A stretch of DNA of 64,000 bases from Rhina ancylostomus (Eukaryota). The notes beneath the pieces were generated by a model. That model was given only the letters and a program-made list of their open reading frames with translations. It was not told where the DNA came from and searched no databases. The DNA lies in assembly GCA_030265395.1 (NCBI GenBank), contig JARFYF010000001.1:31677901-31741900 (forward strand), read 5' to 3'. Position numbers and translations under genes: made by a program. Below are positions 605 to 58,229 of this stretch, one piece after another (position 1 is the first letter of the stretch; each line of letters starts with the position of its first letter).

Positions 605-758
605 CATATGGCCACACATATTTCCTCGGAGCTCACACAGTAGGAGTTAAGTGTACAATTGCTGTAACACACTTTGTCCTCGCATATTGGGTTAGTATAG
701 TCACACCACTTGCACAGGTTCGTCTCCAAGAAACTTGCAATGACGAGGGAATTCAAAA
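605..758 (-). CDS. tgfbr2l: TGF-beta receptor type-2-like, coding exon 2 (N-terminal half of the ectodomain)
   Basis: Acceptor ttcttttgttttgcag and donor TG|gtaagt; 154 nt, phase 1 to phase 2. Translation (V)LNSLVIASFLETNLCKWCDYTNPICEDKVCYSNCTLNSYCVSSEEICVAI(W) aligns to human TGFBR2 [39 protein letters not shown]. All 7 Cys are kept and the intron splits the same Trp codon. Downstream exons lie left of the window. Confidence 0.92.
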
Positions 759-1710
759 CTGCAAAACAAAAGAATTACAAACTTCCAAAAACAGGAAATT
801 CACATGCAGTCTCTGAGCATCTACCACTGAATTGAGACTCCCAAGTATCTTGTGTTGTGCACCCACTTCCAGATTAATAACTGCATGCCTAACTCTATTG
901 ATATCCATTGGTGAGGTACAGCTGTTGCATCAGCAGCAATGACAGCCTTAAGCTAGCGTTGCTGGTCCAAGCAAGGGCAACTATCAAGCTGATCCTGCCA
1001 AGCAGGGTATGATCCCTACTCTGGGGGTAAATACAGCACAGTTTGGGAGCTTCTGCTTTATTTATTAAGATGTTTTACAGGGCTTGCATGATTTTGCAGA
1101 AAAACCTCAATGATATTTATTTGCATTTAAGCTTTCACAGTTGCAGTCCATAAATACGAAGAGTCTGAAATACAAAAACTGACAAGCATAGAGGTAACAA
1201 TGATAGGTACACCTGCCCCTAACCTCAGAAGCAGAGGAGCAGGAGGGAGAAGTGGAGAGGGAAGGAAATGTGAGAAAAGACTGACTAGAAGGTGATTAAG
1301 TAGAATGTAAATTATTAAAAAGCAGACAGCATACATAATTGAAAAACATACATTTCTGAAGCTAACTGGAAATGTTTTGGAGTCTCAGTGGTCATCATAA
1401 AAAGTTATTCAAAATCATCTACTCAAATCAATTCAAATTTTTACACTACTTATCCAACAGTTTATAATGCAGAGCTTTACACTTTGAATTCTATGGATTC
1501 ACCCAATATTAAGAAAATGAACTTCCAATCCAATCAAACTACAGGCACATTGAGGAGAAAGAGATCTATGCAGCATCATCATCAAAAACCATTTGAGCTA
1601 TTAAACACACCAGAAACCCCAGCAATTCCTCAGTAGAAATCCATCGCATAAAGAATAAAAACTTGCTTACATTCCATATGTGCTAATCTGTTATGGCTAT
1701 TAAAACACTT

Positions 1711-1955
1711 GGGCATAAAACTTGCCTTGTGCCAATAATGCGAGATGGGCTAATAGCAAATAACCATCCCATTTTATAAAGTGCCCACATTTTCTTTTAC
1801 ATTTAAGTCAATGGAAAAGATCATTGGGCACTTTACAAAACGAAATGGCTATTTGCAATGACTTCAAAGTAAAAGAAAATTAGCATAACGTAAAGCGGAT
1901 AGCTGATTTGCTGTGAGCTGATTTCGCACTATTGGAGAACACCAATTCAACCTCC
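1711..1955. mobile_element. Palindromic MITE-like DNA transposon remnant
   Basis: Outer inverted repeat ccaataatgcgagat / atttcgcactattgg. Inner hairpin gcaaataaccat..ttttataaagtgccca / tgggcactttacaaaa..atggctatttgc. Confidence 0.5.
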
Positions 1956-3019
1956 TTTGACCTCATTTGCCTTTATGATTCTGCTTGAGCTTTGCTTGGT
2001 ACAGTCCAGTTCCTGTGAGGTAATCAGACAGTTTTGCATCAGTGGTTTCTAAGAAGAACTTGAAGCAGTATAAGAGAGTAAGATTGACTAAATTAGATAA
2101 TAATCTTTTGTCAGAAGGAACATTAACTTCTTGGAGTAAAATGTCCCAACCCCTCCCCCACCCATACTGCTACATTCTGACTGCCACATCTTTCATATTA
2201 ACTCTAATTAAATCCAGATGATGCATTGCAAATTAAGCCTTCAATGATTTAATAAAGCTGCACAAACATAAAAAGAATGATTGTGCATTTATGAAAAAGT
2301 TCCAGATGTTACTGAGGCAAATCCAAAACATCAAAATATAAACTTCAAAAACTTTGGATGAGCCACTGCTAGAGTGAAATAAAACTGATTAAAAATGGTT
2401 CATCTTCCCAACTAAAATTGAACTCATGCCTTTCTTTCATGAGCCAAATCTAATCGTGGATTATGTTTCGAAACAATAACATGAAAAAGGGATTATTGCC
2501 AAAGTTTATATAAACATACTCTTTGCTTAAACCAAAACTCTAAGACTTAGTCAGCCCAATACTTATATATATTAAATGACAAATAAGTTAATTTATTTGA
2601 GTCAAAAGTGTCTGCATTTACTTTCAACTGTATTGCTATTAGAAACAAATTTCCTAATTACCCCATTGTTAAATATATGTATAAATTTACGAAGGTACTT
2701 ATTAAACTATAGTAAAACAATAAGCAACATTGCCATAACATTTTTTTCCATGGTTTAAATTTTTTTGTAAGGTAATATTGAAACAATTTTTCATTAATAT
2801 CACCTGGAGTGATATTTGTTAGCTTTGAAACCAGTCATCGGAATCATAAATTACAATTAACTGCACCCAGTGTAATACAGACAATGTGCATGCTCATTAT
2901 AAAGATTACCGAGTCCAAACTATTCTCTTCATTGGCTGAATGCTTCAGTGGGTGAGTGGGGGGCATGGGCATGAGAATGGGGGAGAAAGTGAGTGAGTGA
3001 TTTGCGGCAGTTGAAACTG

Positions 3020-3733
3020 GCCAACACAGTGAGGTGCACAGAGATCTGGGTAGCCTAGTGCATGATTCACAAAATATTCGTAAACAGGTACTGCAATTAA
3101 TTTGGAAAGCTTGCGGAATGTAACTGCTTATTGTTAAGGGTAGTGAATACAAAAGTAAGGAAATCAGATTCAGCTATACGGAGCATTGAACTACAATAAA
3201 GAGTATTGGTCTTCTTTATTAAGTAGCTTCATTAAATCATTGAAGGCTTAATAATGAAACAACATTAATGTGTTGGAAACAGTTCAGAGAAGGTTCACCA
3301 AACCAATACCTGGAAAGAGTGGGTTGTGCTATGAGGAAAGATTGGACCGGCTCGGATTGCACTACATCAACTGAAGTTTAGAAGGGGGGAGGGGCTTGAT
3401 TGAAATGTACAAGATCCTGAGGAATATTGCAGGTTGCATATGGAAAAGAGTTTTCTCTTGTAGGAGAATGTAGAACCAGAGGTTACTGTTTAAAAATAAG
3501 GCATAGACCATTTAAGAATAGACAATGTGATTTTTTTAATTTATTTCATAAAGTTGTAAGTCTTTGGAACTCTCTTCCTCAAAGGATGGCGAAAGCAGAA
3601 TCTTTGAATGTTTTTAAGGCAGAGGTATATAGGTACTCCAGAACCAAGAGGTTACTGCAGCTAGACAGGAGTACAGAGTTGAGGTTACTATTTAGATTAG
3701 CATGATCTGAGAAAATAGCTGAACAGGGTCAAG
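3020..3733 (+). mobile_element. Decayed CR1/HER1 LINE, 3' part
   Basis: Remnant motifs ggaaacagttcagagaaggttcacc (LE.VQRRFT), TRGYCLKIR and SLWNSLPQ. Confidence 0.8.
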
Positions 3734-5499
3734 NNNNNNNNNNNNNNNNNNNNNNNNNNNNNNNNNNNNNNNNNNNNNNNNNNNNNNNNNNNNNNNNNNN
3801 NNNNNNNNNNNNNNNNNNNNNNNNNNNNNNNNNNNNNNNNNNNNNNNNNNNNNNNNNNNNNNNNNNNNNNNNNNNNNNNNNNNNNNNNNNNNNNNNNNNN
3901 NNNNNNNNNNNNNNNNNNNNNNNNNNNNNNNNNNNNNNNNNNNNNNNNNNNNNNNNNNNNNNNNNNNNNNNNNNNNNNNNNNNNNNNNNNNNNNNNNNNN
4001 NNNNNNNNNNNNNNNNNNNNNNNNNNNNNNNNNNNNNNNNNNNNNNNNNNNNNNNNNNNNNNNNNNNNNNNNNNNNNNNNNNNNNNNNNNNNNNNNNNNN
4101 NNNNNNNNNNNNNNNNNNNNNNNNNNNNNNNNNNNNNNNNNNNNNNNNNNNNNNNNNNNNNNNNNNNNNNNNNNNNNNNNNNNNNNNNNNNNNNNNNNNN
4201 NNNNNNNNNNNNNNNNNNNNNNNNNNNNNNNNNNNNNNNNNNNNNNNNNNNNNNNNNNNNNNNNNNNNNNNNNNNNNNNNNNNNNNNNNNNNNNNNNNNN
4301 NNNNNNNNNNNNNNNNNNNNNNNNNNNNNNNNNNNNNNNNNNNNNNNNNNNNNNNNNNNNAACAGCCATGTTTATATGCTCTAACCACCCATGGTAGAGA
4401 TGATGTTGGCTATCACTGGCCTGCCTGTGCTGACACCGTGGCCACCAACAGGTCTGGATATATTGAAGATGACAGAATCCTTGTAGCTACTCCTTCCCAC
4501 CTCTGCCTTACTGTCAACCCAAAATCTCTTCTGACTGTCAGGATGCAGATGGTATTAGCATGCACATCTTACTTTCTCTCCTTAAACTCACACCTTTCCT
4601 TAATTTCATGAACTGCAACACGGCCAGACAGTAGGAAACAACCAGAAGGTAGTGATGAACCTTCTTAATTTCAATGTCATAGCCACCAGTTCAGACTCTG
4701 TGAATAAGTCAGAGAGTAATGCCAGCTGTGTCTGTGTATCATGAAGCACCTATAAATTCCACTATGCAATATAAGAACTGAAATGGAGCAGATGTAGAAG
4801 GTGCCCAATATCACCAATGGGTGTTCACAAGGGCATGCTCAGTGCATTGGGAAGCCTGCCAGAGAGCCTACATTCCATGCCAAGGAGATTGGCACCAATT
4901 TGGCAGGCACACAGCATGGGGTCCATTCTTTCTAATGTGGAAGTGGATGCTTAGTTAAAATGTGTATGGTGCTATATAACAGGGTTAACGTTTCAGGTTG
5001 ATGACCCTTCATTTTTCTCTTTTGTTCCCAATCAACTCTAAACATTAACTCTGTTTGTCTTTCCACGGAGGGGGTCTGACCTGCTGGAGTGTTTCCAAAT
5101 TTTTCTGCATTTAACTTCAAATTTGATCTATGGTAATTCATTGTCAGGACTCCAAAGACTTCAGGTGACTTCAATAATCTGACGTCACATCTGTGGTAAT
5201 TATTTGGAAATTTGTTTTGCATTTCTACTGTAAACATGTGGCAGTTTAATTATCAGCTGCTAAAAATGTTTGCCTCACTCTGCCTTCTTCTCCATGGTCA
5301 CTCGACTCTGTGCATTTCATTTCTTTGAACAGATGGCATGCCAACTACCAGGATAAGCCACGTCACTGCTACCAAAATGGCTCTCCAGAACTGTGCATGC
5401 TTGCTTGATAATTGATAACATGCACCTAGCTGCAGCCTGTCATCAGAATCCAAGGGGATCTGAGTCCATGTCTTTAGCCGTTTTTGTAGGAGATTAGTT

Positions 5500-5935
5500 G
5501 GGAGAGAGGATATCAGTTTAAAGCCATGGGGGAGAGAAAAGCAAAGGGAGAGGATGAATGAAGAGAAGGATTGGGGTGGCAGAGAGAGGGGGTGAAGAGA
5601 CAGAATGGGAGAGAAGGGAGCAAAGGGAAGAGTTTAGACCAAGGGCTGAGGGAAGCAGAGGAGAGGAGATTGGAATGGATAGAGAGGAATTTTAAGGAAA
5701 GGGAGAGAGGGAAATGTAGGAAGGGGTTTGGAATGAAGAAAGAGTAGTTTGGAGCAGGGAAGAGGGAATACAGTGAGGCAGAAAAGGAGTGAATGGTGTT
5801 TAAGGGAGGGAGAAGGGGAAGGGAAGACAGGGGGTCAGATTGGGGAAGGAGGGGCAACTTAGGTGGAGACAGAAGATTTAAGTTGAGGGGTGGTGTAAAA
5901 ATATCAGAATGGGAGAAAGATGACGGGAGAATATA
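5500..5935 (+). repeat. GA-rich polypurine low-complexity tract
   Basis: About 430 bp of almost pure G/A on the + strand. Confidence 0.85.
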
Positions 5936-6684
5936 CAACTAACATAGTTCCCCAAGTCCCTCAGAACATGAATTCATCATCTGCAATGTGCAAACCCTAT
6001 GAAATGTATGCAGCTCCTATGATTGTGGTTCTAACAAATCTGAGTGCTATTACTGGTATATTTGTAAATGTTACCAAAATGTACTTCAATAGTATGATGT
6101 CACATCCGTGCTAATTACTTACAGATTTGTTTTGCATTTCTACTGTATACATTTAGCTGTTTAAATATAAGCTGCTAAAAATGTTTGCCTCACTGAGTCT
6201 TCATTTTCCATGGTCACCCTACTCTGGGGACTTCATTCCTTTAAACAGATGGCATGTCAGCTACTAGGATAGCTGTGGGAAAAGCCAAGCTTGATAATGT
6301 AAAGCCAGAGGTTATCTCCCATGTGCTGTTCGCAGGTATATTGGTCTAAAATGTTCCAAATGTTTTATTATAGTGGGAGGACAAACCCCAATGTGACTAC
6401 CAAAATTTGGCTCACTAAGTACTGGCAGCTAAAAAAAGAGTATAATATTAGATAACACTAGAAAATGTGTGCTAAGATTTTATTGCACAATTAGCCAACA
6501 CTAAAGATGCAAATGTCATTCTTCCACCTCAGCATGAAGGTTGAATCATCCAGCCAGTGAATACCTATTATGTCAATTTCAAAAGCAGAAAACAGCAGCT
6601 GAAGTCAATTACAGCTGTGCATAGCCATGGAGAGTGGACAGTGGTGGAAGATATTGCATTGATTTGGGAAGATTGATGGAAATC

Positions 6685-6890
6685 ATGGCAAAGCACAGGC
6701 AAAAATGGTTAACCTAGTTTTCCAACATTACTTTGGACAGCTTATCTGTCAAAGTCCTCTACTCACAGGGACCCAAGATACCTCCAAGATCCATAGTGAA
6801 GTCTTGTTCTAGGTCAATGCTTTAACAATGCACCAAAGCCACAAATGCATTGCTGCAAGAAATGTAAAAACTTAATACTCATGACCAAGG
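6685..6890 (+). mobile_element. Decayed Myb/SANT-like ORF, probably from a PIF/Harbinger transposon
   Basis: Broken reading MAKHRQKWLT*FSNITLDSL..VLYSQGPK..EVLF*VNAL..PKPQMHCCKKCKNLILMTKV resembles the Harbinger Myb/SANT pattern (R..RFS...L..L...VNA....RT..QC.KK..DL). Contains stops and frameshifts. Confidence 0.45.
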
Positions 6891-8194
6891 TTAACAATGA
6901 CAGTATCAAGTCCCAACTCTCAACCACCATATCATTAACCTCACACGGTGCTCCAAGCTATAGACCCCCATCAACAACTTCCGAAAATCAGGCTCTAATA
7001 TCAATTTTCCCTACCACACTCACAGACCTGCCACTATTTCAAACCTTGTGTTCACATTTCCTATTTTCCACACATGGTCAGCTATTTAACCTTGGAAGAT
7101 ACATCATTTGAGCACACTTTAGGATACTTATCAACATATCTCCTTCACTCTTGAAGGAGAAAATGGTACATAAATTCCATAAGCAACAAGAGAACACTAG
7201 GGGACTAGTCTATGTCCATTGATTCAGCAGCTTGAAAGAGAGCATATTGGTCTATACAGAGTCCATGGTTAGAGATGGTGCAGAGATCACTGAAGACAAA
7301 GGTATTCTGATATCTAATTGTTCTTCTCATAACCCTCTCCCTTGTTATCCACAAACTCTTTTGATTTACAAGCTATAGGTTGGGTAAGCATTTATGTTTC
7401 TCTTGTCCTCTTCTCTCACAATGACCCTACTTTCGTGCCTTTCTTCTTTCAGATAACCAGGATCTCTCCATTTGCCTAATTGGGTGCAGCTCCATCCAGA
7501 CTCAAACATCTTGACACAACCAAGATAAAGCAACCCTTTTGATTGGCATCTCACCTATTGTGTTGCTGAATCATTACAGATCATTTTGACAGGAATGGTA
7601 TCAAATCAGCGGTGGATAAGAACTGACCATCAAGACCTCGCTCTGTCAAGCCCATGTGGTAGTTGGTGTGCAATGGTTAGTCTATGTTAAAGGAAGTTTC
7701 ACACAGGTAACTTCCACTCCCCTGAATTAGAATGGAAGCAAGTAATCTTCCATCCCAAGGAACTGCCTAAGAAGAAGATTTCATGTATCACAAAGTGCCA
7801 ACTATACAATTTCCTGATTAGTACGAGTCACATTAAAAATATGCTTGTGATTCATGAATAAAATTGGAAGCAAATCAACATTAGTACAATAGAAAATCAG
7901 CTCTCCATAATCCATTTTCAATATAATTCATGTCTATCATGGGAAAAAGCTGATCAACATTTTTAGGGAACTGCGGAACAGTGTTCATAGAGTTTGCAAG
8001 CTCAAAAAGGTCTTGTAAGCTGGTGTTCACTTCAGGACAAATATTGCAATCAATGTGGTTAATTCAAACATTTAACACAGCAGATACTCTTCTATTTTAA
8101 ATCAAGCATTGATTCAAATTAATGAACATAATGCAGAACAAAGTGCAATTTACATACAAGCGAAATATAAATGTTACTATTACTTCTTTTATTA

Positions 8195-8545
8195 GCTGGT
8201 CACAGAACGTAGAGGTCACTGGAAATTCCAGCATTTACCACCCATCCCTACATCCCCCTGACTGAGGAAGCATATAAGAGTCAGCCATATTGGTGGGTCT
8301 GGAATCACGTACTGCCCAGACCTGGTAAGTTTGTTTAAGTTTTCTTCCCTGAAGGACATTACTGAACCAGATGCTTTTTAAATGACTTTGTGGTAGTTTA
8401 ATGATCACTGTTAGGGTAAATTTTTAATTCCAGATTCATTTAATTATTTGAATACACCAGCTGCCATGATGGGATTTGAATTTGTTTCTCTGGATCAATG
8501 GTGCCAGACAGCAAACTTAATTGCTACCTCATCACACTACCCGTA
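8195..8545 (-). mobile_element. tRNA-type SINE with L2-like 3' tail
   Basis: The reverse tail gggatgggtggtaaatgctgg matches the + strand L2-type end at ~36020 (tagggatgggcattaaatgttggacttgccagg). Confidence 0.55.
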
Positions 8546-9699
8546 TGAACAAATTACAAATTAGTCCAAGTACCTTCTTAACAAGGAAAATACCAGAGGA
8601 TGTTGGGATGAATCTTTTAATTTTTTTTCTCTATGGTCTCAGGGTCAAGTTCTCAGGTTGGATATGCCAATTAATGGTAGGTCTGGACAGTATACCATGG
8701 TACCACTAAAATTCCTGGCAGCCCTTTTCTCCTGTTGCTTATTTTCCTTCAGGAAATTAAGTCAAAAGAAACCTAGAGAAACAATCTCATAGTTGGGAAC
8801 TTCCTGTCTTTCATACTGTATGAAACTACAGTAGTTCTCTTATAATATTCAGCATGTGAGAAACTTTTCCTGTAATAATGCATGTTTTTCAAATTAAGAA
8901 TTGGCATTTTTACTGCATGATTCCTAAAGATGATAGTTTTGACATTACTTCTTTTAGCTCCTATTTGTGGATCATATTACCTGCAGACTTTATCAACCAT
9001 AACGTGGCTATCATGCAGTACAAGTCACAAACTCATAAAGCAATTTTCTGACTTAAAGCCTGTGCAACTTTATAAGCTGATGGTAATTTCCGGGTAATGA
9101 AGATGACAAATACAAAAGATTCATGAATTTCTATAGACTTAAAAGCAAATCCGAATGTTTGTGTTTGAGACAATGGAAACTTGGCTGGGCATTGACTGCA
9201 AGATGTCACTGGAATAATTTCAGCCCATCTTATTTCCTTTATCAGATGTATACTCTACAACAACATTCTGTTTGGGAATTGTGGTCATTTCAGGTCTGCA
9301 TATAAACTGACAGGCTAAAGTTGTTTTATTTCAGTTATTTCCTGTGGTTAAGTTAATTCCAGGTCCTGTTAGTTCTTAAGAGGAACTGTGCCAAATCATT
9401 TGAGTTGGCAATAACAGATAACAGGAGGATATTGTGTTTTGCAAATTTTTTAGAAATGCTCTCTTCCATTTCTTTTGTTTTCTTCAGGGCACCATTTCGA
9501 TTCAAGTTTCCTTACTTTGTCTTGACATGGGGAAAATGTTGCCAAAGTCATGCATGTTGTACACCCCCAATTGCCTGAGAAAGTGTTGGTGTGTGTTCTC
9601 ATAGTTTCTTTATTAACAGTACTCCCACTTGGCTCAGCTCATTCACATAATTAAATTCAGCACTACCTTCATTCTTTCTGGACTGAACCATACTGATCA

Positions 9700-10630
9700 A
9701 AGAAGTTCTCTTTAAAACACCTCAGAAATTCTTCTCTCTCATTGTCCTCTCATTTCCAGGCTTGGTAATGGCATGGGGAGCACAACAGAATTTTGCTAGT
9801 GTAATCAGTGCTGGGGATGTTTGTCAGGAGAGGACATTGATGTTAATCCACTTATCCTTCCAGTAAATTTGGAGAATTTTGCAGAAATTGCTGGTAGTAT
9901 CTTTCTTATGCCTCAGAAGCATAAAGGAGGGCAAGGATCACTGCTGCCTGGTAGACCATGGGTTTTGTACGAAATCTGACATCTTAATCTTCATCAACTG
10001 ATCAAAGTCTAAACTGGCACATTGAAGTGGCTGTTGAATTTCATCCTCAATGTCTGCCTTTGTTGAGAGGTAGTTCCCAAGATAAGAGAAGTAATCCACA
10101 ATATCCAGAGTCTCACCATAAACCTTTACTGTTGGAGGGATGGTGTTGTACTCCAGTGACATTAGTTGGTAGAGGAGCTTTGTCTTGTTAAGTGCAAAGT
10201 CCAGCCTCTCACATGCTTCAGTGAACAAGTTGACAATTGTTTGGAGCTTGGCCTCAGAGCATAGACAAACTCAAACATCATCTGTATTCTGCCGTTCAGC
10301 CTCTAAGGTTTGGGTGACCTTGGTTCTGCAGTGCAATCACCATAGATTGAGTAGTTTTCCATTAGTTCTGAAAACAACCTCCTCCACTTCCACAGGAAGT
10401 TTGTCTGAGGTGAGGTGAAGCATTGGGTGAAGATTGAAAAAAAATGTCAGGGTAATGACGTTGTCTTGTTTGACACCAATTTTCACTGAGATTGGCTCTG
10501 CTGTTGACCCATTGGTTAGGGTCATGGCTTACAGGTCATCATGAAGCAAACAAAGGATAGAGATGAACGTTCATGGGCTGCTGAATTTGAGGAGAGTCCT
10601 TCATGTTCATTGGGGTTGAAAAGGGCTATG
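9700..10630 (-). mobile_element. Decayed RTE-clade LINE (RT region)
   Basis: VKIGVKQDNVI..MLHLTSDKLP..FRTNGKLLNL and FTEACERLDFALNKTKLLYQ..FSYLGNYLS..DIEDEIQQ are RTE-type RT motifs. Confidence 0.8.
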
Positions 10631-11649
10631 TTTATTTTTTTTCTATCTCAGTCAATACAGTATTAGGTCGATCAAATCTAGGAGTGTTCTTCTTGGGCAT
10701 TTCCTCAGGATTAAGGATGACTTGCTTCCATTCCAGTTCTGGGGACTGGAAGACATCTGTGTGAAGTTTTTTAATGTGGCGTTAGGGTTGTACATCACTA
10801 CCACACAGAATGAGATCTTGGTCCAATGGCAAGGAGGTCCAAGACTGGAGACAAGATTCTGCTGCACAGAATAAGTGCACACCCAAAATACACACACGCA
10901 CCCATGTGCACACATAGACATGCAAATTGATACACAAATGCAAATCACACACACTCCGAACACAGGGACACACTCTGACCAATATCATCATGGACTCAAA
11001 CACACATACTGCTCTCATCTGAATGGCTCAACTAAACCCACCATTTTCTTTATAAAGTCTAAGCTATTTTGATCTTTATATAATGTTACACTGCAGTGCA
11101 CAGGCATTACGCTGGGAAGCCACAGATGCCATATTGCTTTTTTTTTATTTTTCAGGCATCAGTTTATAAAATGTACTTGCTGTTATACAGTTTTTACTAA
11201 GCAGACTATATAATAAAAATGCCATGTGGGGAAGGAGAAAGGGAAATGAAAAAGGGAAAAAAGTCACACACCAGGAAGAAACAAATGACAAACATCCTGC
11301 GAATGCTTTTTAACAGAAGAAACTGCCAACTTATTCAGTCTGTTTCCATAGATATCAGCAAACCATTACTTCCTGCTACCTGGGGTCATGCATAAGGCTA
11401 AATTTAAATGATACATCATCATTTTATCTGACTTTCAAAACCCAAAATAAAAGGACCTTCTGCATCAGCATTGTTAGAAGTGCCAATTAGTTTACTTTTA
11501 CAATACTCCACTGTATTATGATCCAGACTTTAAATCTCATGGGAATCCTGGCACATGTATACACTTTAAAAGGAGCTAAGCCTTTCTTAGAAAAATAGCT
11601 GCAAGCTGCAATATGTTTTATTAGGCTGTTATTATTTGTCTATTAAACA

Positions 11650-12335
11650 ACTGTAAATGGGTAGACTCATGGCAGATGCAATTTAATGCAAATGTATAAC
11701 ATTTTGAGAAACACTTTGAGAAACAACATGGAGGAGAGGTGTAATCTAAATGGGTGAGGGCTTTGGAAGGCACAAGTGATAAAGGACCAGGAAATGAACA
11801 TCATAAATCATTGAATTTGGCAGGGCAAGCTGATAAGATGGGTTGAGGAAGCCATTTAAATAGGAACAGTGGCTTTTTAAATAGGAAGTCACAGGTTAAG
11901 CCTCAGCTAGATTATTGTGTACATTGCCAGGGATGAAGGACTTGGAAATGTAAAGAGCTCGGAGGTTTTTTCTACACACAGCAAATGGGTTTAAGGGAAG
12001 AGCAAATAGAAGTATTCAAAATTATGAAATTTTTTAATAAACCTGGAGGCAACCTTTTCTCCCAAGCATTGGGTCAACAAGCAGAGACAATAGGTAGGAT
12101 ATTATTGGCAAGGGTAATAGAGGGGAAATGAGGGGAGTTTGTTCTAGACAGAAGGTTGTTAAGATCTGGATACGCTGTTTGAAAAGGACTCCATTGAAAC
12201 TTCCAAAAGACAAGTGGGCATGAAGAGGACTGGGCTGAAAGGTAATGGAGATAATCCTGGGAAGTGGGACTAAAACTTACAGCACTCCAAAGAGTCAGCA
12301 TAAACCCAACAGATCAAACAGGATTCTTCTATGCT
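11650..12335 (+). mobile_element. Highly decayed CR1 LINE, 3' part
   Basis: tggcagatgcaatttaatgca (WQMQFN) motif and a CR1-like 3' UTR. Confidence 0.6.
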
Positions 12336-12399
12336 TCCTGCTCTCAATGCCCTGAACGTACCAGATGTCAGAGCATTACAGGGTGAAAACAGATGGAGG

Positions 12400-16700: not shown

Positions 16701-16884
16701 TGCCAGAAAGAAGTCCTCATTCAAAGAAGTGGCTGGTGAACTCTGCAGGAGATGATGACAGGATGTCTTACCATTCATTTCTGTGAGGTAAATCAGACAT
16801 TCCCAAGTTAAAATGACTCCTTTCTCAAATTGTGCTATTTTACTACTGACTCTCCTACACAATGCCTACACAAAAAAGTACTTC

Positions 16885-17200
16885 ATAGAAACAGAAAAAT
16901 AGGAGGTGTAGGCTATTCACCCCTTTGAATCTCATCTGCCATTCAATGCAATCACGGCTAATCCTCTAACTTTAATACTACATTCCCAGTTTCTCCATAT
17001 CCCTTGATATGCTTTGTGTCTAGAAGTCTATCTAACTGCTTTTTAAGTATATTCAGCCTCCACAGCCTTACATGTTGGAGAATTCCATGGGTGCACAATG
17101 GTATGAGTGAAAACATTTCTCCCCGCATCTTGAGACTATGACACCTGGTGCTAGAGACTCCATAGCGAGAGGAAACATCCTCCATGAATCCAGCCCATTG
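16885..17200 (-). mobile_element. CR1 LINE 3' end
   Basis: Typical reverse-strand tail catagaaacagaaaaataggagg..gccattcaat. Confidence 0.7.
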
Positions 17201-18079
17201 GACTCTGAGTGTTCCACACTTTAGCAGGTCCAAAGTTCATGAAAGGTGCTACTAATGTGCAAATCTTTCACACTTTCTCCTACAAGTGCTGGAAGTATGA
17301 AGCTTATTTTCTGAGAAAGCTGGGGCATGTTGTCCTTTCAATTTTAACTCTTTATTGTGTGTATTTTTCAGCATTTTACATATTGCTATTATTCTGCTTT
17401 CCAAGCCAAAACTTTTTTACTGGAAGCAACAGTAAGATTTTAAATATATAAGTAAAAATGACTATTATAATCTACTTTAACTCCACAAACTCAATTATGA
17501 AATTTGAGCTAATCTACTCAAGAAAATTACAGATGTGATTTTTACCAAGTATGATGCCAAATTGTGTTATGTACACAAAACACATTGTCGAGATTTAATG
17601 CAGATGCCAGATCTCTGGTGACATTGCTCATGGTAAATCAGAAGATATGTTTTCTCCATTATTTGTGTCCATCTTCCTTATTTCTCTGCCAATTAACTTA
17701 CTCGTTCTTTCATTTTATCTTCTTGTTCTCTTCTGCTTGTCTTCTCAGACTGGCAAGAAGTAAGAAGAGGGAGAAAGTGATAGGCTATTGGATAAGGTTG
17801 ACCCAGATGGCGCTGGAGGCTGGTGGGTTAGCAATGGCTCTGGACTAAGAATTAGAACTAAAGAAAGGGAGAATAATCCTACACCACAGATTTACTTCTT
17901 GGGTGACATATAAATAACCTCATATGAAGGAGAGAGGAGATCCAGTTAAGAATTAGCGGTATGAAGATGGAAAAAGAAAGACCCAGGAGTGATAGGACTG
18001 TAGAGACAGTGGGAGGCAGTAACAGAGAAAGGAAAAACAAATTAGGACAAGGAAGACAGGATGGTGAAGAAGGCCCACG

Positions 18080-18700
18080 GCACACTGGCCTTCATCAGTC
18101 AGGGCAGTGAGTATACAAGTTGGGATGTTATGTTGCAGTTGTACAAGATATTTGTGAGGGCCTTATTTTGAATAACGTGTTCAGTGTTAGTCACCCTGCA
18201 ATAGAAAAAATACCATTAAGCTGGAAGGAGTGCAGAAAAGAGTTATGGGGATGTTACCAGGACTCGAGAGACTTATTTATAGAGAGAGACTTAGCAGACG
18301 AGGACTTTTTTCATTGGAGTGTAGGAGACTGAGAGGTGATCGTATGGAGGTGTATAAAATCATGAGGGGCATAGATAGGGTGAATACACACAGTCTTTTG
18401 CTCAGGGTTGAGAATCAAGAACCTTAAACTTAGGTTTAAGGTGAGAGGGAAGAGATTTAATAGGAACCCGAGGGCAATTTTTTCGCCCGGAGGGTGGTCC
18501 ATAGTATGGAATAAGCTGCCAGTGGAAGTGACTGAGGAAGATACATTAACATCATTTAAAAGGGACTTGGAGACATACATGGATAGGAAAGGGTTAGCAG
18601 GATATGGGCCAAATGTGCGCAAATGCAACTAGCTTAGATGGGCATCTTGGTTGGCATGGACCAGTTGGGCCGAGGGGCTTGGATACGTGTTGTCTGACTC
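18080..18700 (+). mobile_element. CR1/HER1 LINE 3' fragment, relatively well preserved
   Basis: MLPGLERLIYRERLSRRGLFSLECRRLRGDRMEVYKIMRGIDRV; WNKLPVEV..FKRDLETYMDRKG. Confidence 0.9.
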
Positions 18701-19849
18701 TCCCACTAAACGAAAGACAAAATAGGTACTTGAGTATAAGAAAGAATTAAGAAATTTCAGTTTTCCTTTCAATCTGATGCATCTTCATTAAACTAGCATT
18801 TCTCTCCAGCACAAGGTTATTCCCCTGAGCTGAGTTGATTCACTGACCACTAGTCATTGTATTGTTCAGGATATGTGAGCTGTGTATTAATCTCCTATTG
18901 ACATCAGGCAGGATATCCTGGAAGTATCAGGTACAAAATAGGACCTGCCAAATCAGCTCCCAATGAGATTTCTGCTTCTGTCTAAATTATTCTGAGAAGC
19001 TAGAATGGGATTCATAGGCTAAGATATATTATTATAAAAACACAGGCCAAGAGTTTTCATTTGAGCACAATAGGTGACCCTGGCATTAATTGTGTAGAAA
19101 ATTGCTCCAGTTTTCAGAAGTAAGTTATTTGCTTAAGATTCTGCTCACATCCATTTCCATATTTCAAGCTGTAAATGTTTCCATGAACCAAAAGCAGCTT
19201 TGGAACTTTTCCCCTTAAAAAGAACTTTGCTTTAAAAATTGTACCTTACTATATTTGAAAATAGTAACCTGGTATAGTTTTATTTATACTTTATAAATTG
19301 AGGCATGTAGCACACAAAAAAGCACATTGATCAAATTACCTGATCTACTACTTGTGATAAAACTAATTTTAAATAACTGAAAATGACATGTTAAAAAATC
19401 TACAGAACTATTTGGCCTTCTGAAGTCAGATTCTTGTAAATAATATTTAAAATGTTTCAGAAGAGCCTGTTTGTGCCCATGCACCTAAGATAACATTTGA
19501 CTTAATTTTAACATTTTCAAAGGCCCAAAAATTAGCAGGAAACTTACCATGCTAAGCAATTAGATCTGTTTGGCTTCCATAGCATTGTTCTTTATAATAC
19601 TGAAAATGAATCTGGAAACTCCATTTGCTTTGGAAGTAATTTATGTTTAAAATTTCTCAATCATATGCACTGGTTTGCCAATTTTTGGGTGATTTGTTTG
19701 GAAATGTCACCACAAACTAACAGAAATTCCTGGTCATAGTACTTTCAAAATTAGAAAAAGCTCTTCAAAGCATAATACAGGAGCCTGAATGGAGTTTTGA
19801 ATTTAAAACTCACAGATTTGATTCTGGAAATGAAGACTTATGGTGCCAT

Positions 19850-20900
19850 AGGAATGGAGATCTCTTCTCTTGATGAATTCGAAGCTAGTAATTGATTTCA
19901 CAGAAACACAGACAAGGCAGTAGAACATGACAGATGAAATTCTCAAAGAGAAGTGACATGATATATTTTGGTAGGAAGAATGAAGAAAGACAATACACAC
20001 TATGTCATACAATATTCAAAGGGCTTGTGCATAGGCCTTTGAAAGTGAACTGAGAAGTCAATAAAAAGATATATACAGTTGACTTCTGATTTACCAGTCT
20101 ATGGGTTAACTGTGCAAGGGGGACAAAAGCTCATGCTTTATGTCTTACTGAACTCAATATGCTCTAGCTGAAAGGAATATTTGCAGTTTGGTAATTGAGA
20201 GTCAACCCCAGAAGGTACTTAGCATAAAGAGGCCCAACTGGAATAAATAAATCCAGTTTTGGCACCTCATTTTAGGAAGGACCTGAAAGCTTTGATTCTG
20301 GGGAAAGGGATTAAAATTACATGGATAAACTGGACATGATGTAATTTTTCTCTCTAAAACACAGAAGGCTAAGGAGATTTGGCAGATTTAAATCATTGGT
20401 GATTTAAATAAAAGTATACAATTTTCAATGCTGAAAGGTTGAGAATCAGAGGTGTATATTAAGGAAAATTAAAATGCTGATGCTGGAAATCTGAAATGAA
20501 AACAGAAAATGATGGAAGAACTCAGCAGGTCAGCAGCATCTGTGGAAAGAGAAAACAGTCAATGAAAGAAAAACAGTCAACATTAACTGTTTTTCTTTCA
20601 TCACAAGCATGCCTGACCTGCTGAGCTTTCAGCATTTTCTATTTTTATTAGTGTAGATTAAGGACATATGAGACAAAAAATATGAGACAAAGAAAATTCC
20701 AAATGGTTAGGATTTGGAATGTATTGGCTTATTGGTTGGTGGATATGGCTTCATTGTTAGCCTTGAAAAGAAAATCAGATAAATATTTGATTAAGAATGA
20801 AATTACAGGGATATGGAGAAACACTGGGAGAGAGAAACTAACTGGATAGCTGCTAATAGAGTTAACACAAACTTAAATGGTCATAGGTCTTGTAATCTGC
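19850..20900 (+). mobile_element. Decayed CR1 LINE interrupted by a Penelope-derived hairpin (20465-20650)
   Basis: CR1 motifs catgacagatgaaattc and ccagttttggcacctcattttaggaagg. Inserted arms gaactcagcaggtcagcagcatctgtgg / gcctgacctgctgagc. Confidence 0.65.
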
Positions 20901-22435
20901 CATGATACTGCAATTTTGCCAATAACAATTACTCTGATGGCCATTTGGAGATGATCCTGTTGAGTCAAATGAAACCTAATTTTATGTTGACATGGAAATC
21001 TGTACATATTTAATTTAAAATATACCCAAAATTAAAGGTACATTCTTGTGATGAAACTTTTTCACTGGATTTCTGTTATTAATCCCACATGAGCCTTCAG
21101 TGCATCTGTAAATCTTATGTGCTTTTCTTAAATATTTGCTGATTAGTGTTGGCAAATTTTCTTAGCTTTCAGGCTATATATATTCAGTAAACAGATTACA
21201 TATGTTTTTAGTAAATATATCTGGGATCACTTTTACTTGAACGAACATCAAAAGTAATGCTAGAAGAGTGTGAAGAATGGATCATCAGTAGGGTTTATGT
21301 TCACAACCATTTTCATTGGCTTCAGTGTCATATCGTCTGTTCTACATCAGTGGCAGCTTTCAAGTACACTGGTACGCAACAGATAACCAGTCTTCTAGCG
21401 ATATCTTAAGTCAAAGGAAGGGTATAATAACTCAGAATTGGACAATATCTGAATCTGAAACAATTCCAAACACAAAAACAAATTTAGTAGCTCAACTTGT
21501 TTGCCAGTGGGACATTTAATTATTCTTGATTTTAGCTAGTTTCTGAGAAAACATTTCATTGATAAAATGATAAAGTCATGCCTAAACCATGTCTATCCTT
21601 GATAAATACAGCAAACAAAACCACTCCTTTGCCAAAATTCTATTTAACTACATCGACTACACAGTTTTGGGTTCCACTCTTAATTCAATCAGAGATCTTT
21701 ACTATGTTGAAGGAATATTAAATCTAGCTATTTAAATAGCTAGCACTATTTGATTTGGATTTAGTTTTATAGAACTACTTACTCCCTCAACAATTGCACA
21801 CTGATCCTCATTAGCAAAATTTGCCACATTATATGGAAGTGTGTCTTTTCAATGATCAACTGAGAAAAGGTGCATAACAGTGGATTATCGATTGCTATAT
21901 CTGTAATGATTTTCTCATTAAACTATATACCTATTAAACTACTAGATCAATTAAACATAATCAGGGCAAATGAATAAAAGAGATGATTACATTTAGAGAA
22001 AAGAAACCTAAAATGTTATCACATAATCAAAACAGAGCATGTACAAAGTAAACACTGAGGAGTGAAATCATAACTTCCTTAAGAACCAAGTGCACAAAAA
22101 AAGTCACCTTGGTTTCAAAAACCCTTTGTTTTCTGCTTTTATAACATTCTGTTATCTTTGTAATATCACCCAATGTTGAAACTGAAATACCATTTTCCTT
22201 CTAAAATCATATCAAACTTTCAGAAGAGACCCAGTTGGGTTTCAGCATTTTCCACTACACCTCGAGCAGGATGGAGAGAGTAGTGGGACAGCGGTCAGGA
22301 AAGGGTTTAACTCCAATATCAATTCTTGATAGCTCTGTCTTTATTATTAGTTATTTACAGTGTTAGGCAAGTGTAGTTTAAGGAGGGATGTACTCATACT
22401 AGAAGCAGTTCAGAAAAGATCCATTGGGTTGATGT

Positions 22436-23295
22436 AAAAAACAGAAAATGCTGGAAACATGCAGAAGTTCAGGTAACATTTGTGGAAAAAGAAACAACGA
22501 AAGTTTCAGGTGCAGGACCCTTTGGCAAAACTGGGAAGGACAGAAAACAAGTTAGTTTTCTATTAGAGAAGGTAGGGTGGGGTGGGGAAGGGTAAAACAA
22601 ATGGAATACCTCTGGTAGGGTCAGACCAAATGTCTAGAAGTAGTAATTAGAAGCCCATTATGCTCTGTTATTTGTTGTTCTAGGCGATGGGACTTGCTCA
22701 GCAAGCCAGACTATCCATATGGAGAGAGAAAAACTGAGCCAAGATGATGACAGGCAAATGGCCGGTTCAAACTGTCAAATAGAAACAAAGAGTGAATTAG
22801 CTGAAGGTCAAGGATTCAATATTGAGTGTAGGAGGCTGCAACATACCTAAATGGAAGATGAGGCACTCTTTCTCAAATACGTTGAGAAAGTGCAGGAAGC
22901 CACAGACAGAAAGATTAGATTAGGAGTGGGTTAGGGAAGTCAAATGACAGGCAACTGGAAGCTCAGGGTCACTCTTGCAGACTGAATGCAGGTGCCCTGC
23001 AAAGCAATCATGCAATCTCCATTTAATTTCTTCAGCAGCAAGGAGACCACATTGTGGACACTGAGTGCAGTACACTCACTTGGAAGAAGTGCAAGTGAAT
23101 TGCTGCTTTATCTGGAAAGTGTGTTTGTGTCCCTGGATGGTGAGAAGAGATGAGGTTAAATGATTGGCATTGCACCTTTTGCTGTCCCAAGCATGACACC
23201 ATATTTATCAATTCTGACAAAGGTTTAAGGACCTGAAATGTTAACTGATTTTCTTTCCATCATTTTCTGGTTTTATTTCAGTTTCCAGCATCTGT
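22436..23295 (-). mobile_element. Penelope-like element with inverted termini and a GIY-YIG remnant, inserted in a CR1 (~22330-23830)
   Basis: Inverted ends aaaacagaaaatgctggaa / ttttctggttttatttcagtttccagcatct. The reverse internal part reads like a Penelope GIY-YIG (..gaaattaaatggagattgcatgattgctttgcagggcacctg, E.K.RL.D.FA.HL). Confidence 0.7.
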
Positions 23296-24899
23296 GGTTA
23301 TTTTTTATTTTCATTCACCATGGCACATGGATGCAAGAAAAATGGAGGGTTATGGGCTGTGAAGAAGGGAAGGGTTAGATTGATCATGGAGCAGGTTTAT
23401 ATAGGTCAGCACCACATCGTGGGCCGGTGCTACTTCTAGATTGATTTCTGAGATGAAGCATTGACGTGCAGAAAAATTGTGCAGCTTGGGCCTATACATT
23501 AGAGTTTAGGAGAATGAGGAGTGATCTTATTGAAGGTTAGAAGATTTTGAGAGGGCTTAAACAGGATGGATGCTGAGAGCATGTTTCCCCTCATGGGTGA
23601 ATCTGAAACTGGGTTTATGGCTTCAGTGTAATAGGATGTCCATTTAAGATAAGAGAAGGAATTTCTTCTCTAGGAGTGTCATGAATCTTTGAAAATTTCA
23701 TTATTACAGAGCTTGTGGAGGCTAAATTATTGAATGTATTCAAAGTTGATACTGATTTTTAATCTGTATGAGAACTAATGATAATGAGAAACAGGCAGGA
23801 AAGTGAAGCTGATGCTAAGATCAGATAAAAGTAGGTAAATATGTAACTGCAAATATGTAGATAGCAATTAAATCAGTTTTTTTTTCAAATAATGCACTCA
23901 TTCCTCATTAATCATGAGGGATATGTTTGAGAGATACTCACGAATAGCAGAGTTTGTGATTAATAATTTTGGCCTAAATAAATCTACCATCTTGATTCCC
24001 CCATTAAACTATACCAGGCAATTAGTAAGATAAGTACCTGAATAAACTGTAAATAAATACTATCAAATCATTAAAAAGTCATAATTATAGTATGTCACAG
24101 ATCTGGAAGGCTATAGTACTGTATATGTGCAGGTTTGGAAACAACTAGACAACAGACTGGAGTATGGTTAACCCAATCTGTGGACTTCTTGTTCCCTCTG
24201 ACATTGCCAATCCTTCTGTCTAACCTTGCCTCCACATTGGCATGACTCTGGAGCTCTGAGAATTTCAACCCTTCTTTTGCATTTCAGCAAATCTCTGCTG
24301 CCTTTTGGTGGCCTGGTTCCGTTAAAACTCAAAATTTATGTTCTACAGCTTTGTCCTTGTAGTGTTTTCATTGTTGGCCTCCTTTCTTCTGTCATCCATG
24401 AGCTCTTATAAAATACTTGCTCAGCTAACCATAGTCATTCAACCAAACAACCTGCCCAGCCAGAACTGAACCATGATTAGCATAACCTCAGTGCTGGGCT
24501 TTATCACGTGCTAGTAATTTATTGTTAGAAATCTTATCCTGTTCAAAGACATCTTGATGAATGAAATATGCATATTATTTTTGTACTTCAAAATAAGTGT
24601 CTTAACTATAATGCATTTTCCAGTGATGAACGCCCCTAAGAATCATAGATATTTCACAAAAAAATGTTGAAGTATGGAGAAATAACAAATGGAGAATATT
24701 AATTATTCAACATAGATACAGCTAAAGGTAATTGCATTTGGAGGATAAAGGGGAGACTTTCTACAAAATGTCCAAGTCTATTTCCTAGATCAATATGCCT
24801 ATTGCCCAATAAAGAACTTGGAACCAGTCCTGGGAAAAGAAGTGGGCAAGTAGGCAGTCTATGTATGGGGAAACATTGTTAATTAATGAAGAAAAACAA

Positions 24900-27300
24900 T
24901 ACTTTGGTTTGACGTGGAAGTCAAAAAGCAGAGGGGAAGATCTGGAAGAAAGCAAACTTCGTGGGGGAGGGGGAATAGGAATAAACACAAATAAAAGCAC
25001 ATACATGTGTGTGTGCTCCTCATTTCCTACATCGCACCTTAAATAACTCTTCGAATGTCAACACTATTTATTAAATTGTTGTATAACATTACGTATATAA
25101 TCGTCTCAAATAATAATTAAAATAAGTGATGTTATTTGTACGACACAGGCTGTGGAAATCCGACTGTAATTTGAGAAAGCCATGAGTTAAATACTCCATA
25201 AAGAATGAATTATTTACACTTAATATTTTAAGCCTGTGGAAAAAAAAACGTTCATTTAGCTCAGTGGGAGCAGGCTGAATGAAAATATTTCGTCGTATGA
25301 TAAATACGTAGACTATATTGGATACGTAGTTGGATACTTTGCAGGGCAAGAGAATGGGAAAGGGTCCGAAGGGGCAAGAGTACAAAGATTGAACGAACAG
25401 TTAGCTTTCTGATTCGAAGGTCCCTGTGCAGTGAAACGTTGCAACAATTGAGAGCATATTGCCAGGATTTGTCAACCTTTTGTCCAAATCCAAAGAAAGC
25501 AACAATAATAAACCATTCTGATATTTTAGTAAATAACGAACTAAAGTTAAATTTGAGCTACTTTGTTCAGTGACTTCCTTCGACATTCCGTTACTTCAGC
25601 TCTCCTTCGCGAGCGAGTACCATGGGTTCAGGACTGGTGACTTACACCGTGCAGAAAATGTCCTCAGAACTTATTTTTTCATCGTAAAATTATAAATTGA
25701 TTTTTCAAAAGATCTGTAGCTCTCTTGTTCTTTAAATCACAATTTGAATATTTTGTTTCCAGTAGTTTGCGTAACCAATTAAGGTCGGTGAATTTGAAAT
25801 TAGGCTTGGTTAAAGCAATATTTTGAAGTTTATGCCTTCCTATTGAGTTCCCCTGGGATCTCATAACATACTTCGAGTGACTGGGCGCTTGCCGGGAAGC
25901 AATTTACTCTGCGCTAACGCGTAATCAGTACTACTGATCGCACTACTTTTACTTAACTGTAAAAGTTAAAGTGTGTGCAAATTTTTGTTTCTATTAATCT
26001 GACATTAAAGACTATTCGTCAAAATGAGCAAATTTAAAACTGGCTCAATGTTCCCAGCCGCAGGCGGAACTTCAGCAAATGTGGTCACTGAAACGATTCT
26101 ATTAGAAACTAGGCAGTCGTTCCAAACGGAGACTTTTCCTTTGTTTTCCCTTCCTCTCTGAGATGCCGATTGAACTAAATAGAAGGCAGCCGTTGCGGGG
26201 ATCTATTACATGCAGAAGCTGTGTTGAGAATATTTGAGGCACTCGGTGAAAATTCTGGTCTCAGTGATCAGAATGCTGAAAATTTGATGTCTATGTCGGC
26301 AAACGCTATAATCCAGCATTCTGATTTNNNNNNNNNNCGTGTTTGCTAAAAATGCTGAGAGTTACACTTTATGAGTTAAGTAGTGGTTAAAGCTGGAAAA
26401 AGCTGCGCTTGCTCTGATTTACGATCCCTACCCTCTTAAATCCTGATAGTGTATTATTTCTTCACTTACCGGAAGCTAGAACCAAGACAGATGTTGGGGT
26501 TAAGACCCTCCAGCAGTCCATTCTCCTTCCAGGGATCCGAGCATGGAGAGTCCTACCGAAAAACAGCGACCGATCTATCTCCGCTTTTTAGTTCCATCAT
26601 GCAGTCTCGGTGTAAAGATCATTGCAGGCACGCGTGAGGGACTCATGCTGCCCGGGCTTGGGGTGCCTTGGAGGGACTTTACTGGAGGCGGGTCTGGTGC
26701 CAGCTGTTCTGAACTTGCCTTTAAACTCCAACTACAAGGCTCTTTGCGGGGCCGCCCAGAAGGAAGGTTTTCAAACGTCAACAAATCAAATTTCCACCAA
26801 AAAAAACCCAATGGCGACAAATCAGCACTCGTTTTTTAAAAATCAAACGGTGCAATTCATGGAACAAAACTTACTCCTGTCTATTTTTGGGAATAACCCT
26901 CAGTTGGCGAGTGTCTACGTCCCTCAGTTTGCAAAACGAAACACACGTGGGCTTCTAAATCTGGGGAAAAAAGTTTCTCTGTGATTCATGGAGAGAAAAC
27001 AGCAAAATATATGAATCCCATCATCTCTCCGGATAATAAACTTCATTGGGTAATTGAATTATCAGCATATATTTTAAATCTGATTAAGTGCAAGATTTTA
27101 TTGTATTCATTCTGAAGAAACTTATTTTTTTCTGTTAATTTATTGAAAACATATAAAAGTATTAGGAAACTTTTTATGCTAAGTCGCAATAAATGTCACA
27201 ATTCATAAACTTCTCTACATTGGAAAATGGAGATCAAACTTTCAAAACAAACCTATGAACTGAACTTAAATCAAATCGTGATTCAAAAGTTGTGAGGGAC
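24900..27300 (-). promoter_or_regulatory. CpG-retaining promoter/first-exon island of the TGFBR2-like gene
   Basis: CpG frequency is visibly higher than in the flanks. GC-box-like GGAGGCGGG (~26684) and GCGGGGCCGCCC (~26746), plus E-box CACGTG (~26944), lie upstream of exon 1. Confidence 0.65.
26470..26521 (-). CDS. tgfbr2l: TGF-beta receptor type-2-like, coding exon 1 (signal peptide)
   Basis: Reverse strand reads ggagaATGG (A at -3, G at +4) and encodes MDCWRVLTPTSVLVLAS plus 1 nt, followed by the donor G|gtaagt. There is an in-frame TAA upstream and the exon sits in a CpG-rich region. Its phase-1 end joins in frame to exon 605-758. The paralog symbol is an inference. Confidence 0.85.
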
Positions 27301-57990: not shown

Positions 57991-58229
57991 AAATGCTGAG
58001 ACACAAGGGGAGAAACTTGGTCCTTTGGATAGTGTCTGTGAATTATACTCCACTATGAAACTTCAGTTCTATTGACTTCTGTGGAGTCTTTTAAGAAACT
58101 GAGTAGTGTACACAAAATTGTAAGTTTAACATGGCTAATTGAAGGACAAATCTTTAGAAGAAAATTAATATGTACACAAACTCTGTGCATTAGAACAACT
58201 GAATAGTCTCAGATCTACAATCTATTCAA

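What the first reader, a model, noticed from the sequence alone, without database searches (positions are those of the whole stretch)
605..26521. Hidden TGF-beta type II receptor paralog, absent from the ORF track
Seen: two minus-strand exons (52 and 154 nt) with consensus splice sites and matching phases join into MDCWRVLTPTSVLVLASVLNSLVIASFLETNLCKWCDYTNPICEDKVCYSNCTLNSYCVSSEEICVAIW. Known: this Cys pattern and the intron inside the Trp codon are those of TGFBR2. Human TGFBR2 lies between RBMS3 and GADL1, not next to SNX4. Inference: this is a second, poorly characterised type II receptor (TGFBR2-like) kept in non-mammalian vertebrates. That would imply a parallel TGF-beta receptor arm in cartilaginous fish.
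Basis: partly seen in the sequence, partly recalled or inferred. Interest (0 to 1): 0.8.

Follow-up and report, generated by a model that had tools for sequence, protein, structure and literature searches.

The report
Known second TGF-beta receptor gene, TGFBR2L
These are the first two exons of TGFBR2L, an already described second copy of the TGF-beta type II receptor gene that sharks, rays, bony fish, amphibians, reptiles and birds keep and mammals are reported to have lost; it likely binds TGF-beta and signals much like its twin, so the gene is ordinary, though little studied.

Summary
Observation confirmed. The two exons are real, and RNA reads of a related animal join them at the stated junction. 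Five more exons lie left of the window, giving a stop-free 574-aa receptor: signal peptide, 12-Cys TGFBR2 ectodomain, one membrane helix and a Ser/Thr kinase. The genome holds a second copy next to GADL1. In the trees the window gene falls in a clade without mammals and the other copy groups with mammalian TGFBR2 (AU p=2e-5). This is TGFBR2L (TGFBR2B), published for elephant shark in 2018 (PMC5979292) and again in 2026 as a genome-duplication paralog lost in mammals (PMC13187141). It is not hidden: the exons are short and the rest lies outside the window. Added here: the gene sits between OSBPL11 and a SNX4-type gene, mirroring an OSBPL paralog, GADL1 and TGFBR2 on the other chromosome. The clade keeps the ligand-gripping acids D32 and E119 but differs at positions 22-24 and 118, which contact the type I receptor in human TGFBR2. 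No binding or signalling study of TGFBR2L turned up in nine literature searches.

The parts
26470..26521 (-). TGFBR2L coding exon 1 (52 nt): start codon and most of the predicted signal peptide
   Evidence: loose ends of RNA reads match its 3' end
759..26469 (-). Intron 1, 25,711 nt, GT-AG, phase 1
605..758 (-). Coding exon 2 (154 nt): N-terminal half of the ligand-binding domain, 7 Cys
1..604 (-). Start of intron 2. The gene runs on left of the window on G000:C1, minus strand: exon 3 31676500-31676298 (203 nt, rest of the ligand-binding domain), exon 4 31672077-31671263 (815 nt, membrane helix and kinase N-lobe; 38 codons unread, frame kept), exon 5 31663425-31663284 (142 nt), exon 6 31655552-31655425 (128 nt), exon 7 31644514-31644284 (231 nt to the stop). 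OSBPL11 ends on the plus strand about 12 kb beyond the stop.
   Evidence: exon 2/3 and 3/4 joints in RNA reads; OSBPL11
26400..26950 (-). CpG-richer stretch over exon 1 and its upstream DNA (GC 0.48, CpG obs/exp 0.73, against 0.39 and 0.15 in intron DNA 10000-20000); likely promoter and 5' UTR (inferred)
52568..61120 (+).
   Evidence: Pfam PX E=4e-8; 67-88% identity to the PX part of primate model P0326

Best explanation
The two exons begin a seven-exon gene for TGFBR2L, the sister gene of TGFBR2, which is spliced in a related animal and encodes a single-pass receptor kinase that likely binds TGF-beta-subfamily ligands and would then phosphorylate a type I receptor (most likely TGFBR1/ALK5) to switch on SMAD2/3. 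Shown: exon structure, open reading frame, splicing in a relative, domain content, kinase motifs, clade, neighbours. From the literature: origin in early vertebrate genome duplication and loss in mammals. Inferred: ligand binding through the conserved D32 and E119, type I recruitment and SMAD output. Odds: identity as TGFBR2L about 0.97; works as a signalling TGF-beta type II receptor partly redundant with TGFBR2 about 0.7.
For: Gene model: 7 exons, 6 of 6 introns GT-AG, 574 aa, no internal stop. Intron phases 1,2,1,0,1,0 are the same as in the canonical copy, and exons 5 and 6 have the same lengths, 142 and 128 nt. RNA of a relative: exon 3/4 joint in 6 reads of X21, 2 of X22 and 1 contig of X1; exon 2/3 joint in 4 reads of X21, 0 of X22 and 1 contig of X1; exon 1/2 as loose ends in 9 reads of X21 and 1 contig of X1; run X15, whose contigs run through introns, shows none of these joints. 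Two copies in the genome: 4 ectodomain exon hits at 2 places; of 12 matches to kinase exon 5, two are at 100% and 79%, the other ten at 46-60%. Trees: 47 rows with 554 columns and 50 kinase rows with 3 outgroups give two clades, each with chimaera, shark, ray, ray-finned fish, coelacanth, lungfish and tetrapods; support 98/99 for the window gene's clade and 96/87 for the canonical clade; forcing the window gene into the canonical clade is rejected, p-AU 1.9e-5. Paired neighbourhoods: OSBPL11 and TGFBR2L on C1; an OSBPL paralog (64-71% to four OSBPL11 proteins), GADL1 and TGFBR2 on C84, in the same orientations; GAD1 on C1 and GAD2 on C84. Kinase motifs in the 96 database proteins of the TGFBR2L class: HRD 96 of 96, DFG 96 of 96, VAxK 95 of 96. 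Ligand-contact acids: D32 in 54 of 64, E119 in 58 of 62. Papers: PMC5979292, PMC13187141, PMC10432839.
Against: No call measures binding, kinase activity or SMAD output. The 38 codons that should hold the Gly-rich loop and catalytic Lys are unread in this assembly; contigs of two runs bridge them at the same length and orthologs have both motifs, but this genome's own letters are not seen. The reads come from a relative, at low depth (about 0.3-6 on exons), and X22 shows no exon 2/3 joint. Residues that contact the type I receptor in human TGFBR2 differ across the clade. Xenopus workers use the tgfbr2l locus as a safe harbour for transgenes, which suggests disruption is tolerated. The outgroups are partial, long-branched and from this genome, and no jawless or invertebrate TGFBR2 was in the tree, so the date of the duplication rests on the papers.
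Confidence: 0.85

Rival explanations
1. TGFBR2L binds TGF-beta but is wired differently: it recruits ALK5 weakly or only with a co-receptor, prefers another type I receptor, or favours a ligand such as the second TGFB2 gene, and so tunes rather than duplicates TGFBR2 output.
For: Tally on the membrane-proximal ligand-binding domain, human numbering (64 of 97 TGFBR2L-class rows and 109 of 124 canonical rows matched the pattern). Position 24 is polar or charged in 62 of 64 against hydrophobic in 98 of 109. Position 22 is polar in 55 of 64 against hydrophobic in 104 of 109. Position 118 is acidic in 0 of 62 against 99 of 105. F30 is W in 64 of 64 and I53 is Y or F in 64 of 64. The median distance from Met to the first domain Cys is 31 (n=56) against 49 (n=78). 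V22, F24 and D118 are named as type I contacts in a simulation paper (PMC12785921). PMC5979292 notes that TGFB2B and TGFBR2B are retained in the same lineages.
Against: The rows are not independent (many birds and reptiles) and were classed by best BLAST score, not by tree. A hydrophobic residue sits at 23 in 57 of 64 and could replace 22/24. The loop before E119 is one residue longer (62 of 62) and usually has an acidic residue one place earlier. This ray's own TGFBR2L has F at 22, and its canonical receptor has A at 118 in an equally long loop, so the 118 change does not separate the paralogs in rays. No structure or assay was run.
Confidence: 0.25
2. The window gene is the canonical TGFBR2, moved next to SNX4, or a ray-specific recent duplicate.
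For: Databases name several of its closest orthologs simply 'TGF-beta receptor type-2' (P0002, P0004, P0006).
Against: A second copy stands next to GADL1 and groups with mammals. The two copies share about 49% identity over 535 aa, unread residues counted as mismatches. AU test p=1.9e-5. Both clades contain chimaera, coelacanth and birds.
Confidence: 0.01
3. The gene is a decaying or kinase-dead copy, or a decoy.
For: 38 codons are unread here. The gene was lost in mammals and some birds and amphibians (PMC13187141). Its locus serves as a safe harbour in Xenopus.
Against: No stop or frameshift in 536 read codons; short end branch (0.014-0.021) beside intact orthologs; HRD, DFG and APE present; spliced in a relative.
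Confidence: 0.04

Closest known systems
TGFBR2L / tgfbr2l / TGFBR2B ('TGF-beta receptor type-2-like') of non-mammalian jawed vertebrates
   Different: Nothing of kind. One ligand-binding domain, as usual; the paper reports two only for lungfish. Most sharks and rays in the set have Val at position 55 where most of the clade has Glu.
Canonical TGFBR2 (human TbetaRII; C84 copy in this genome)
   Same: 12-Cys ectodomain, membrane helix, kinase, seven coding exons with the same intron phases, D32 and E119.
   Different: About 49% identity; W30, aromatic 53, polar 24, Q/H118; shorter N-terminal extension; flanked by OSBPL11 and a SNX4-type gene rather than GADL1; reported absent from mammals.
ACVR2A/B, BMPR2, AMHR2 (other type II receptors)
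   Same: Type II architecture and kinase family.
   Different: The ectodomain hits only ecTbetaR2 in Pfam; the two type II outgroup rows fall outside the TGFBR2 plus TGFBR2L clade, support 100/98. A full BMPR2 was not in the tree.

Membership tests
TGFBR2-type receptor (TGFBR2/TGFBR2L) | ecTbetaR2 ectodomain with 12 Cys after a signal peptide | tested here: met
   Pfam PF08917; 12 Cys at 33-125 and a hydrophobic N-terminus by hydropathy only
TGFBR2-type receptor (TGFBR2/TGFBR2L) | One membrane helix followed by a Ser/Thr kinase with HRD, DFG and APE | tested here: met
TGFBR2-type receptor (TGFBR2/TGFBR2L) | Gly-rich loop and catalytic Lys in this genome's copy | tested here: inconclusive
   These 38 codons are unread; the frame and length are kept and orthologs have both motifs
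TGFBR2-type receptor (TGFBR2/TGFBR2L) | Binds TGF-beta and activates a type I receptor and SMAD2/3 | not testable with these tools
   Inferred from D32/E119 and kinase conservation
TGFBR2L (TGFBR2B) orthologs | Groups with the non-mammalian 'type-2-like' clade, apart from mammalian TGFBR2 | tested here: met
TGFBR2L (TGFBR2B) orthologs | A separate canonical TGFBR2 in the same genome | tested here: met
   C84:81.05-81.11 Mb, next to GADL1
TGFBR2L (TGFBR2B) orthologs | Lies in a chromosome region paralogous to that of TGFBR2 | tested here: met
   OSBPL11 and its paralog, GAD1 and GAD2, on C1 and C84; only these pairs were checked against named sequences
TGFBR2L (TGFBR2B) orthologs | Absent from mammals | tested here: inconclusive
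   No named mammalian row among the best 120 of 695 hits; no mammalian genome was searched; the claim rests on PMC5979292 and PMC13187141
Canonical TGFBR2 orthologs | Groups with mammalian TGFBR2 | tested here: not met
   AU test rejects, p=1.9e-5
Canonical TGFBR2 orthologs | Flanked by GADL1 | tested here: not met
   The GADL1 match is on C84; the nearest listed PF00282 match on C1 is about 10 Mb away and is GAD1
Canonical TGFBR2 orthologs | Flanked by RBMS3 | not tested
   No RBMS search was run

The most novel reading that the evidence does not exclude
TGFBR2L is not a spare copy but a differently wired TGF-beta receptor: it keeps the ion pairs that grip the ligand fingertips, has rebuilt the hydrophobic contact (W30, Y/F53), and has lost the V22/F24/D118 surface that lets TGFBR2 pull in ALK5 cooperatively. 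It would then give most non-mammalian vertebrates a second mode of TGF-beta signalling, perhaps matched to the second TGFB2 ligand, that mammals dropped.
Probability: 0.25. Interest if true: 0.55.

Novelty: already known. Interest (0 to 1): 0.17.

Why it matters
As a gene it matters little: it is published and annotated. It matters as a caution, because databases mix up the names of the two paralogs (orthologs of this gene are called 'TGF-beta receptor type-2' in three cartilaginous fish, while a skate's canonical copy is called '-like'), so TGFBR2 knock-outs or expression work in fish, frog or chick can target or miss the wrong copy. If the interface changes alter type I recruitment, the rule that TGFBR2 is the only high-affinity TGF-beta type II receptor would be a mammalian special case, and the clade-wide residue differences give direct mutants to test.

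Tried and rejected
A six-frame ORF list of the window at 90 aa or more does not show the gene, as expected for short exons. The first two attempts at the gene model cut exon 4 at the wrong place and were corrected; exon 1 of the C84 copy was three bases too long and was corrected. Run search: no RNA holder listed on record; the evidence used comes from laying raw RNA reads. A PDB search could not name the PX gene: best hit sorting nexin-7 at E=3e-4. Many of the 40 listed hits for 'tgfbr2l' (of 42) look like mouse Tgfbr2-LoxP or '-low' text; one was checked and was such a false hit. Searches for cartilaginous-fish or functional work on this receptor gave nothing further. The supplements of PMC13187141 hold one mention and no shark names as text; its Fig. 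2 is a picture and was not seen. No complex prediction was run: no whole TGF-beta ligand protein was in hand, and a pass would follow from likeness to solved structures. No fold was predicted because the Pfam and PDB matches already fix it. Two look-ups of earlier scan notes gave nothing relevant. Rejected readings: moved canonical gene, recent duplicate, pseudogene, chance exon pairing.
Full report
1. Observation. The window is G000:C1:31677901-31741900 in a 2.2-Gb genome; its proteins group with those of rays. Exon 2 alone matches Pfam ecTbetaR2 (E=1.2e-11) and 12 of 12 PDB hits are TGF-beta receptor type II. Its open frame is 57 aa, so an ORF track would miss it.

2. The rest of the gene. 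In the 200 kb left of the window lie exons 3-7. The seven exons (52, 154, 203, 815, 142, 128, 231 nt) give 574 aa with no internal stop, and all six introns are GT-AG. The protein has a hydrophobic N-terminus, 12 ectodomain Cys, one membrane helix near residue 146-165 and a kinase with HRD, DFG and APE. Thirty-eight codons of exon 4, covering the Gly-rich loop and the catalytic Lys, are unread in this assembly. The frame is kept, the orthologs have 38 residues there, and contigs of two runs bridge the stretch at the same length.

3. Splicing. Four runs were laid on the stretch holding exons 2-4 (about 18% and 24% of the two raw RNA runs were read). The exon 3/4 joint is in 6 reads of X21, 2 of X22 and 1 contig of X1. 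The exon 2/3 joint is in 4 reads of X21, none of X22 and 1 contig of X1. At the 5' edge of exon 2, 9 reads of X21 and the X1 contig continue with letters identical to window 26471-26500, the end of exon 1. Run X15, whose contigs run through introns, shows none of these joints. The RNA is from a related animal (reads mostly 90-99% alike), depth is low and the tissue is not on record.

4. A second copy. The ectodomain family hits two places in the genome, C1 and C84. Of 12 matches to kinase exon 5, two are TGFBR2-type (100% and 79%) and ten are at 46-60%. The C84 gene has seven exons with the same intron phases and is about 49% identical to the window gene. It lies tail to tail with a decarboxylase gene whose best PDB match is GADL1 (E=2e-30 against 8e-22 for the next).

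5. Trees. I picked 45 of 219 database proteins by hand to span lineages and added both gene models. The full-length tree and the kinase tree with three partial outgroups from this genome both give two clades, each holding chimaera, shark, ray, ray-finned fish, coelacanth, lungfish and tetrapods. The four mammals are all with C84. Support in the kinase tree is 98/99 for the window gene's clade and 96/87 for the canonical clade; holding the window gene with the canonical clade is rejected (p-AU 1.9e-5). The outgroups are long branches and no jawless or invertebrate TGFBR2 was included, so the tree shows a duplication before the cartilaginous/bony split but does not date it further. No named mammal is among the best 120 of 695 hits to the window gene's kinase; that is weak evidence of absence.

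6. Neighbours. On C1 the order is OSBPL11 (+), TGFBR2L (-), PX-domain sorting nexin (+). On C84 it is an OSBPL paralog (+), GADL1 (+), TGFBR2 (-); that this paralog is OSBPL10 is recalled. GAD1 is on C1 and GAD2 on C84. A New World monkey gene model that fuses OSBPL11 to a PX domain (P0326) maps on the OSBPL11 exons and then on three PX-gene exons in the window, jumping over the whole TGFBR2L gene. This fits a mammalian locus in which OSBPL11 and SNX4 are adjacent and the receptor is gone, but it is one gene model, not a genome search.

7. What is known. PMC5979292 (passages; Table S2 not seen) reports a duplicate 'TGFBR2B' from genome duplication in elephant shark, coelacanth, gar and tetrapods except mammals, retained alongside a duplicate TGFB2B. 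PMC13187141 (passages and one whole results section; supplements searched as text; figures not seen) states that 2R gave TGFBR2 and TGFBR2L and that TGFBR2L was lost in all mammals and some birds and amphibians. Chicken TGFBR2L is on chromosome 7 (PMC10432839, passages), as are SNX4 and OSBPL11 (PMC11507135, table passages). Xenopus tgfbr2l is used as a safe-harbour site (PMC10511863 and bioRxiv 2025.03.05.640691, passages) and rises in IL34-treated wounds (PMC12738165, one passage). Nine searches listed no ligand-binding or signalling study of TGFBR2L, judged from titles and abstract starts; the library lacks most subscription journals, and the primary safe-harbour paper was not seen.

8. How it likely works. 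By established knowledge of the pathway (recalled), a type II receptor binds the ligand dimer, recruits a type I receptor, phosphorylates it, and SMAD2/3 carry the signal. Human TGFBR2 grips TGF-beta1 through F30, D32, S49, I50, S52, I53 and E119 (PMC4552549, discussion passage). In the TGFBR2L class D32 is kept in 54 of 64 and E119 in 58 of 62, while F30 is W in 64 of 64 and I53 is Y or F in 64 of 64 (64 of 97 rows matched the pattern, the rest lack or break the ectodomain pattern). Kinase motifs are intact across the class. I therefore expect a signalling TGF-beta receptor, partly redundant with TGFBR2 (about 0.7). Binding and output are inferred, not shown.

9. The open lead. Residues 22, 24 and 118 contact the type I receptor in human TGFBR2 (PMC12785921, a simulation, passages; crystal-structure work recalled). 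They differ across the TGFBR2L class: position 24 is polar in 62 of 64 (hydrophobic in 98 of 109 canonical rows), position 22 polar in 55 of 64, position 118 acidic in 0 of 62 (99 of 105 canonical), and the N-terminal extension is shorter. Against reading much into this: rows are related, a hydrophobic residue at 23 and an acid one place earlier in a longer loop may compensate, this ray keeps F22, and its canonical receptor also lacks D118. I give a real difference in wiring about 0.25.

10. Verdict. Novelty: already known. Interest 0.17.

Noticed in passing
L027:6680-6682 (canonical TGFBR2, C84 exon 4): The canonical copy reads DCG where 219 of 219 database homologues have DFG. It may be an assembly error, an allele or a real kinase change; it was not checked against reads.
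   Followed up: partly
C84 canonical TGFBR2 kinase: VAAK in place of VAVK at the catalytic Lys is shared by 7 of 7 shark and ray canonical TGFBR2 proteins listed, but not by the chimaera.
   Followed up: partly
L091, L092, L093, L094, L095, L096: Pieces of at least four TGF-beta-subfamily ligand genes. All four first-half exons have Arg at position 25, including the TGFB2-type gene on C63, which has Ile92 and Lys94; mammalian TGF-beta2 has Lys25 (recalled). Two short contigs carry a divergent ligand with Arg25, Val92 and Arg94 if the two pieces belong together; names and pairing are untested.
   Followed up: partly
L051 and L104-L106 (C81, first 21 kb): A divergent type II receptor kinase on the contig that also carries an ACVRL1-like kinase (names recalled from motifs); possibly AMHR2, which PMC5979292 did not find in cartilaginous fish.
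   Followed up: no
window 26544-26646, minus strand: Five upstream ATGs, all out of frame; the one at 26544 opens a 14-codon frame that overlaps the start codon and could damp translation if it lies in the mRNA.
   Followed up: no
window 45312-45902, plus strand: GC- and CpG-rich stretch with an ATG at 45381, likely the first exon of the sorting nexin gene; no Pfam match.
   Followed up: partly
database proteins P0002, P0004, P0006, P0124, P0205: Names do not follow orthology: three cartilaginous-fish TGFBR2L proteins are named plain 'type-2', while skate and sturgeon canonical proteins are named 'type-2-like'.
   Followed up: yes
window 29043-29490, 33228-33704, 37788-38444, 49328-50017: Fragments that look like reverse-transcriptase (LINE-type) remnants in six-frame translations; recognised from memory, not searched.
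   Followed up: no
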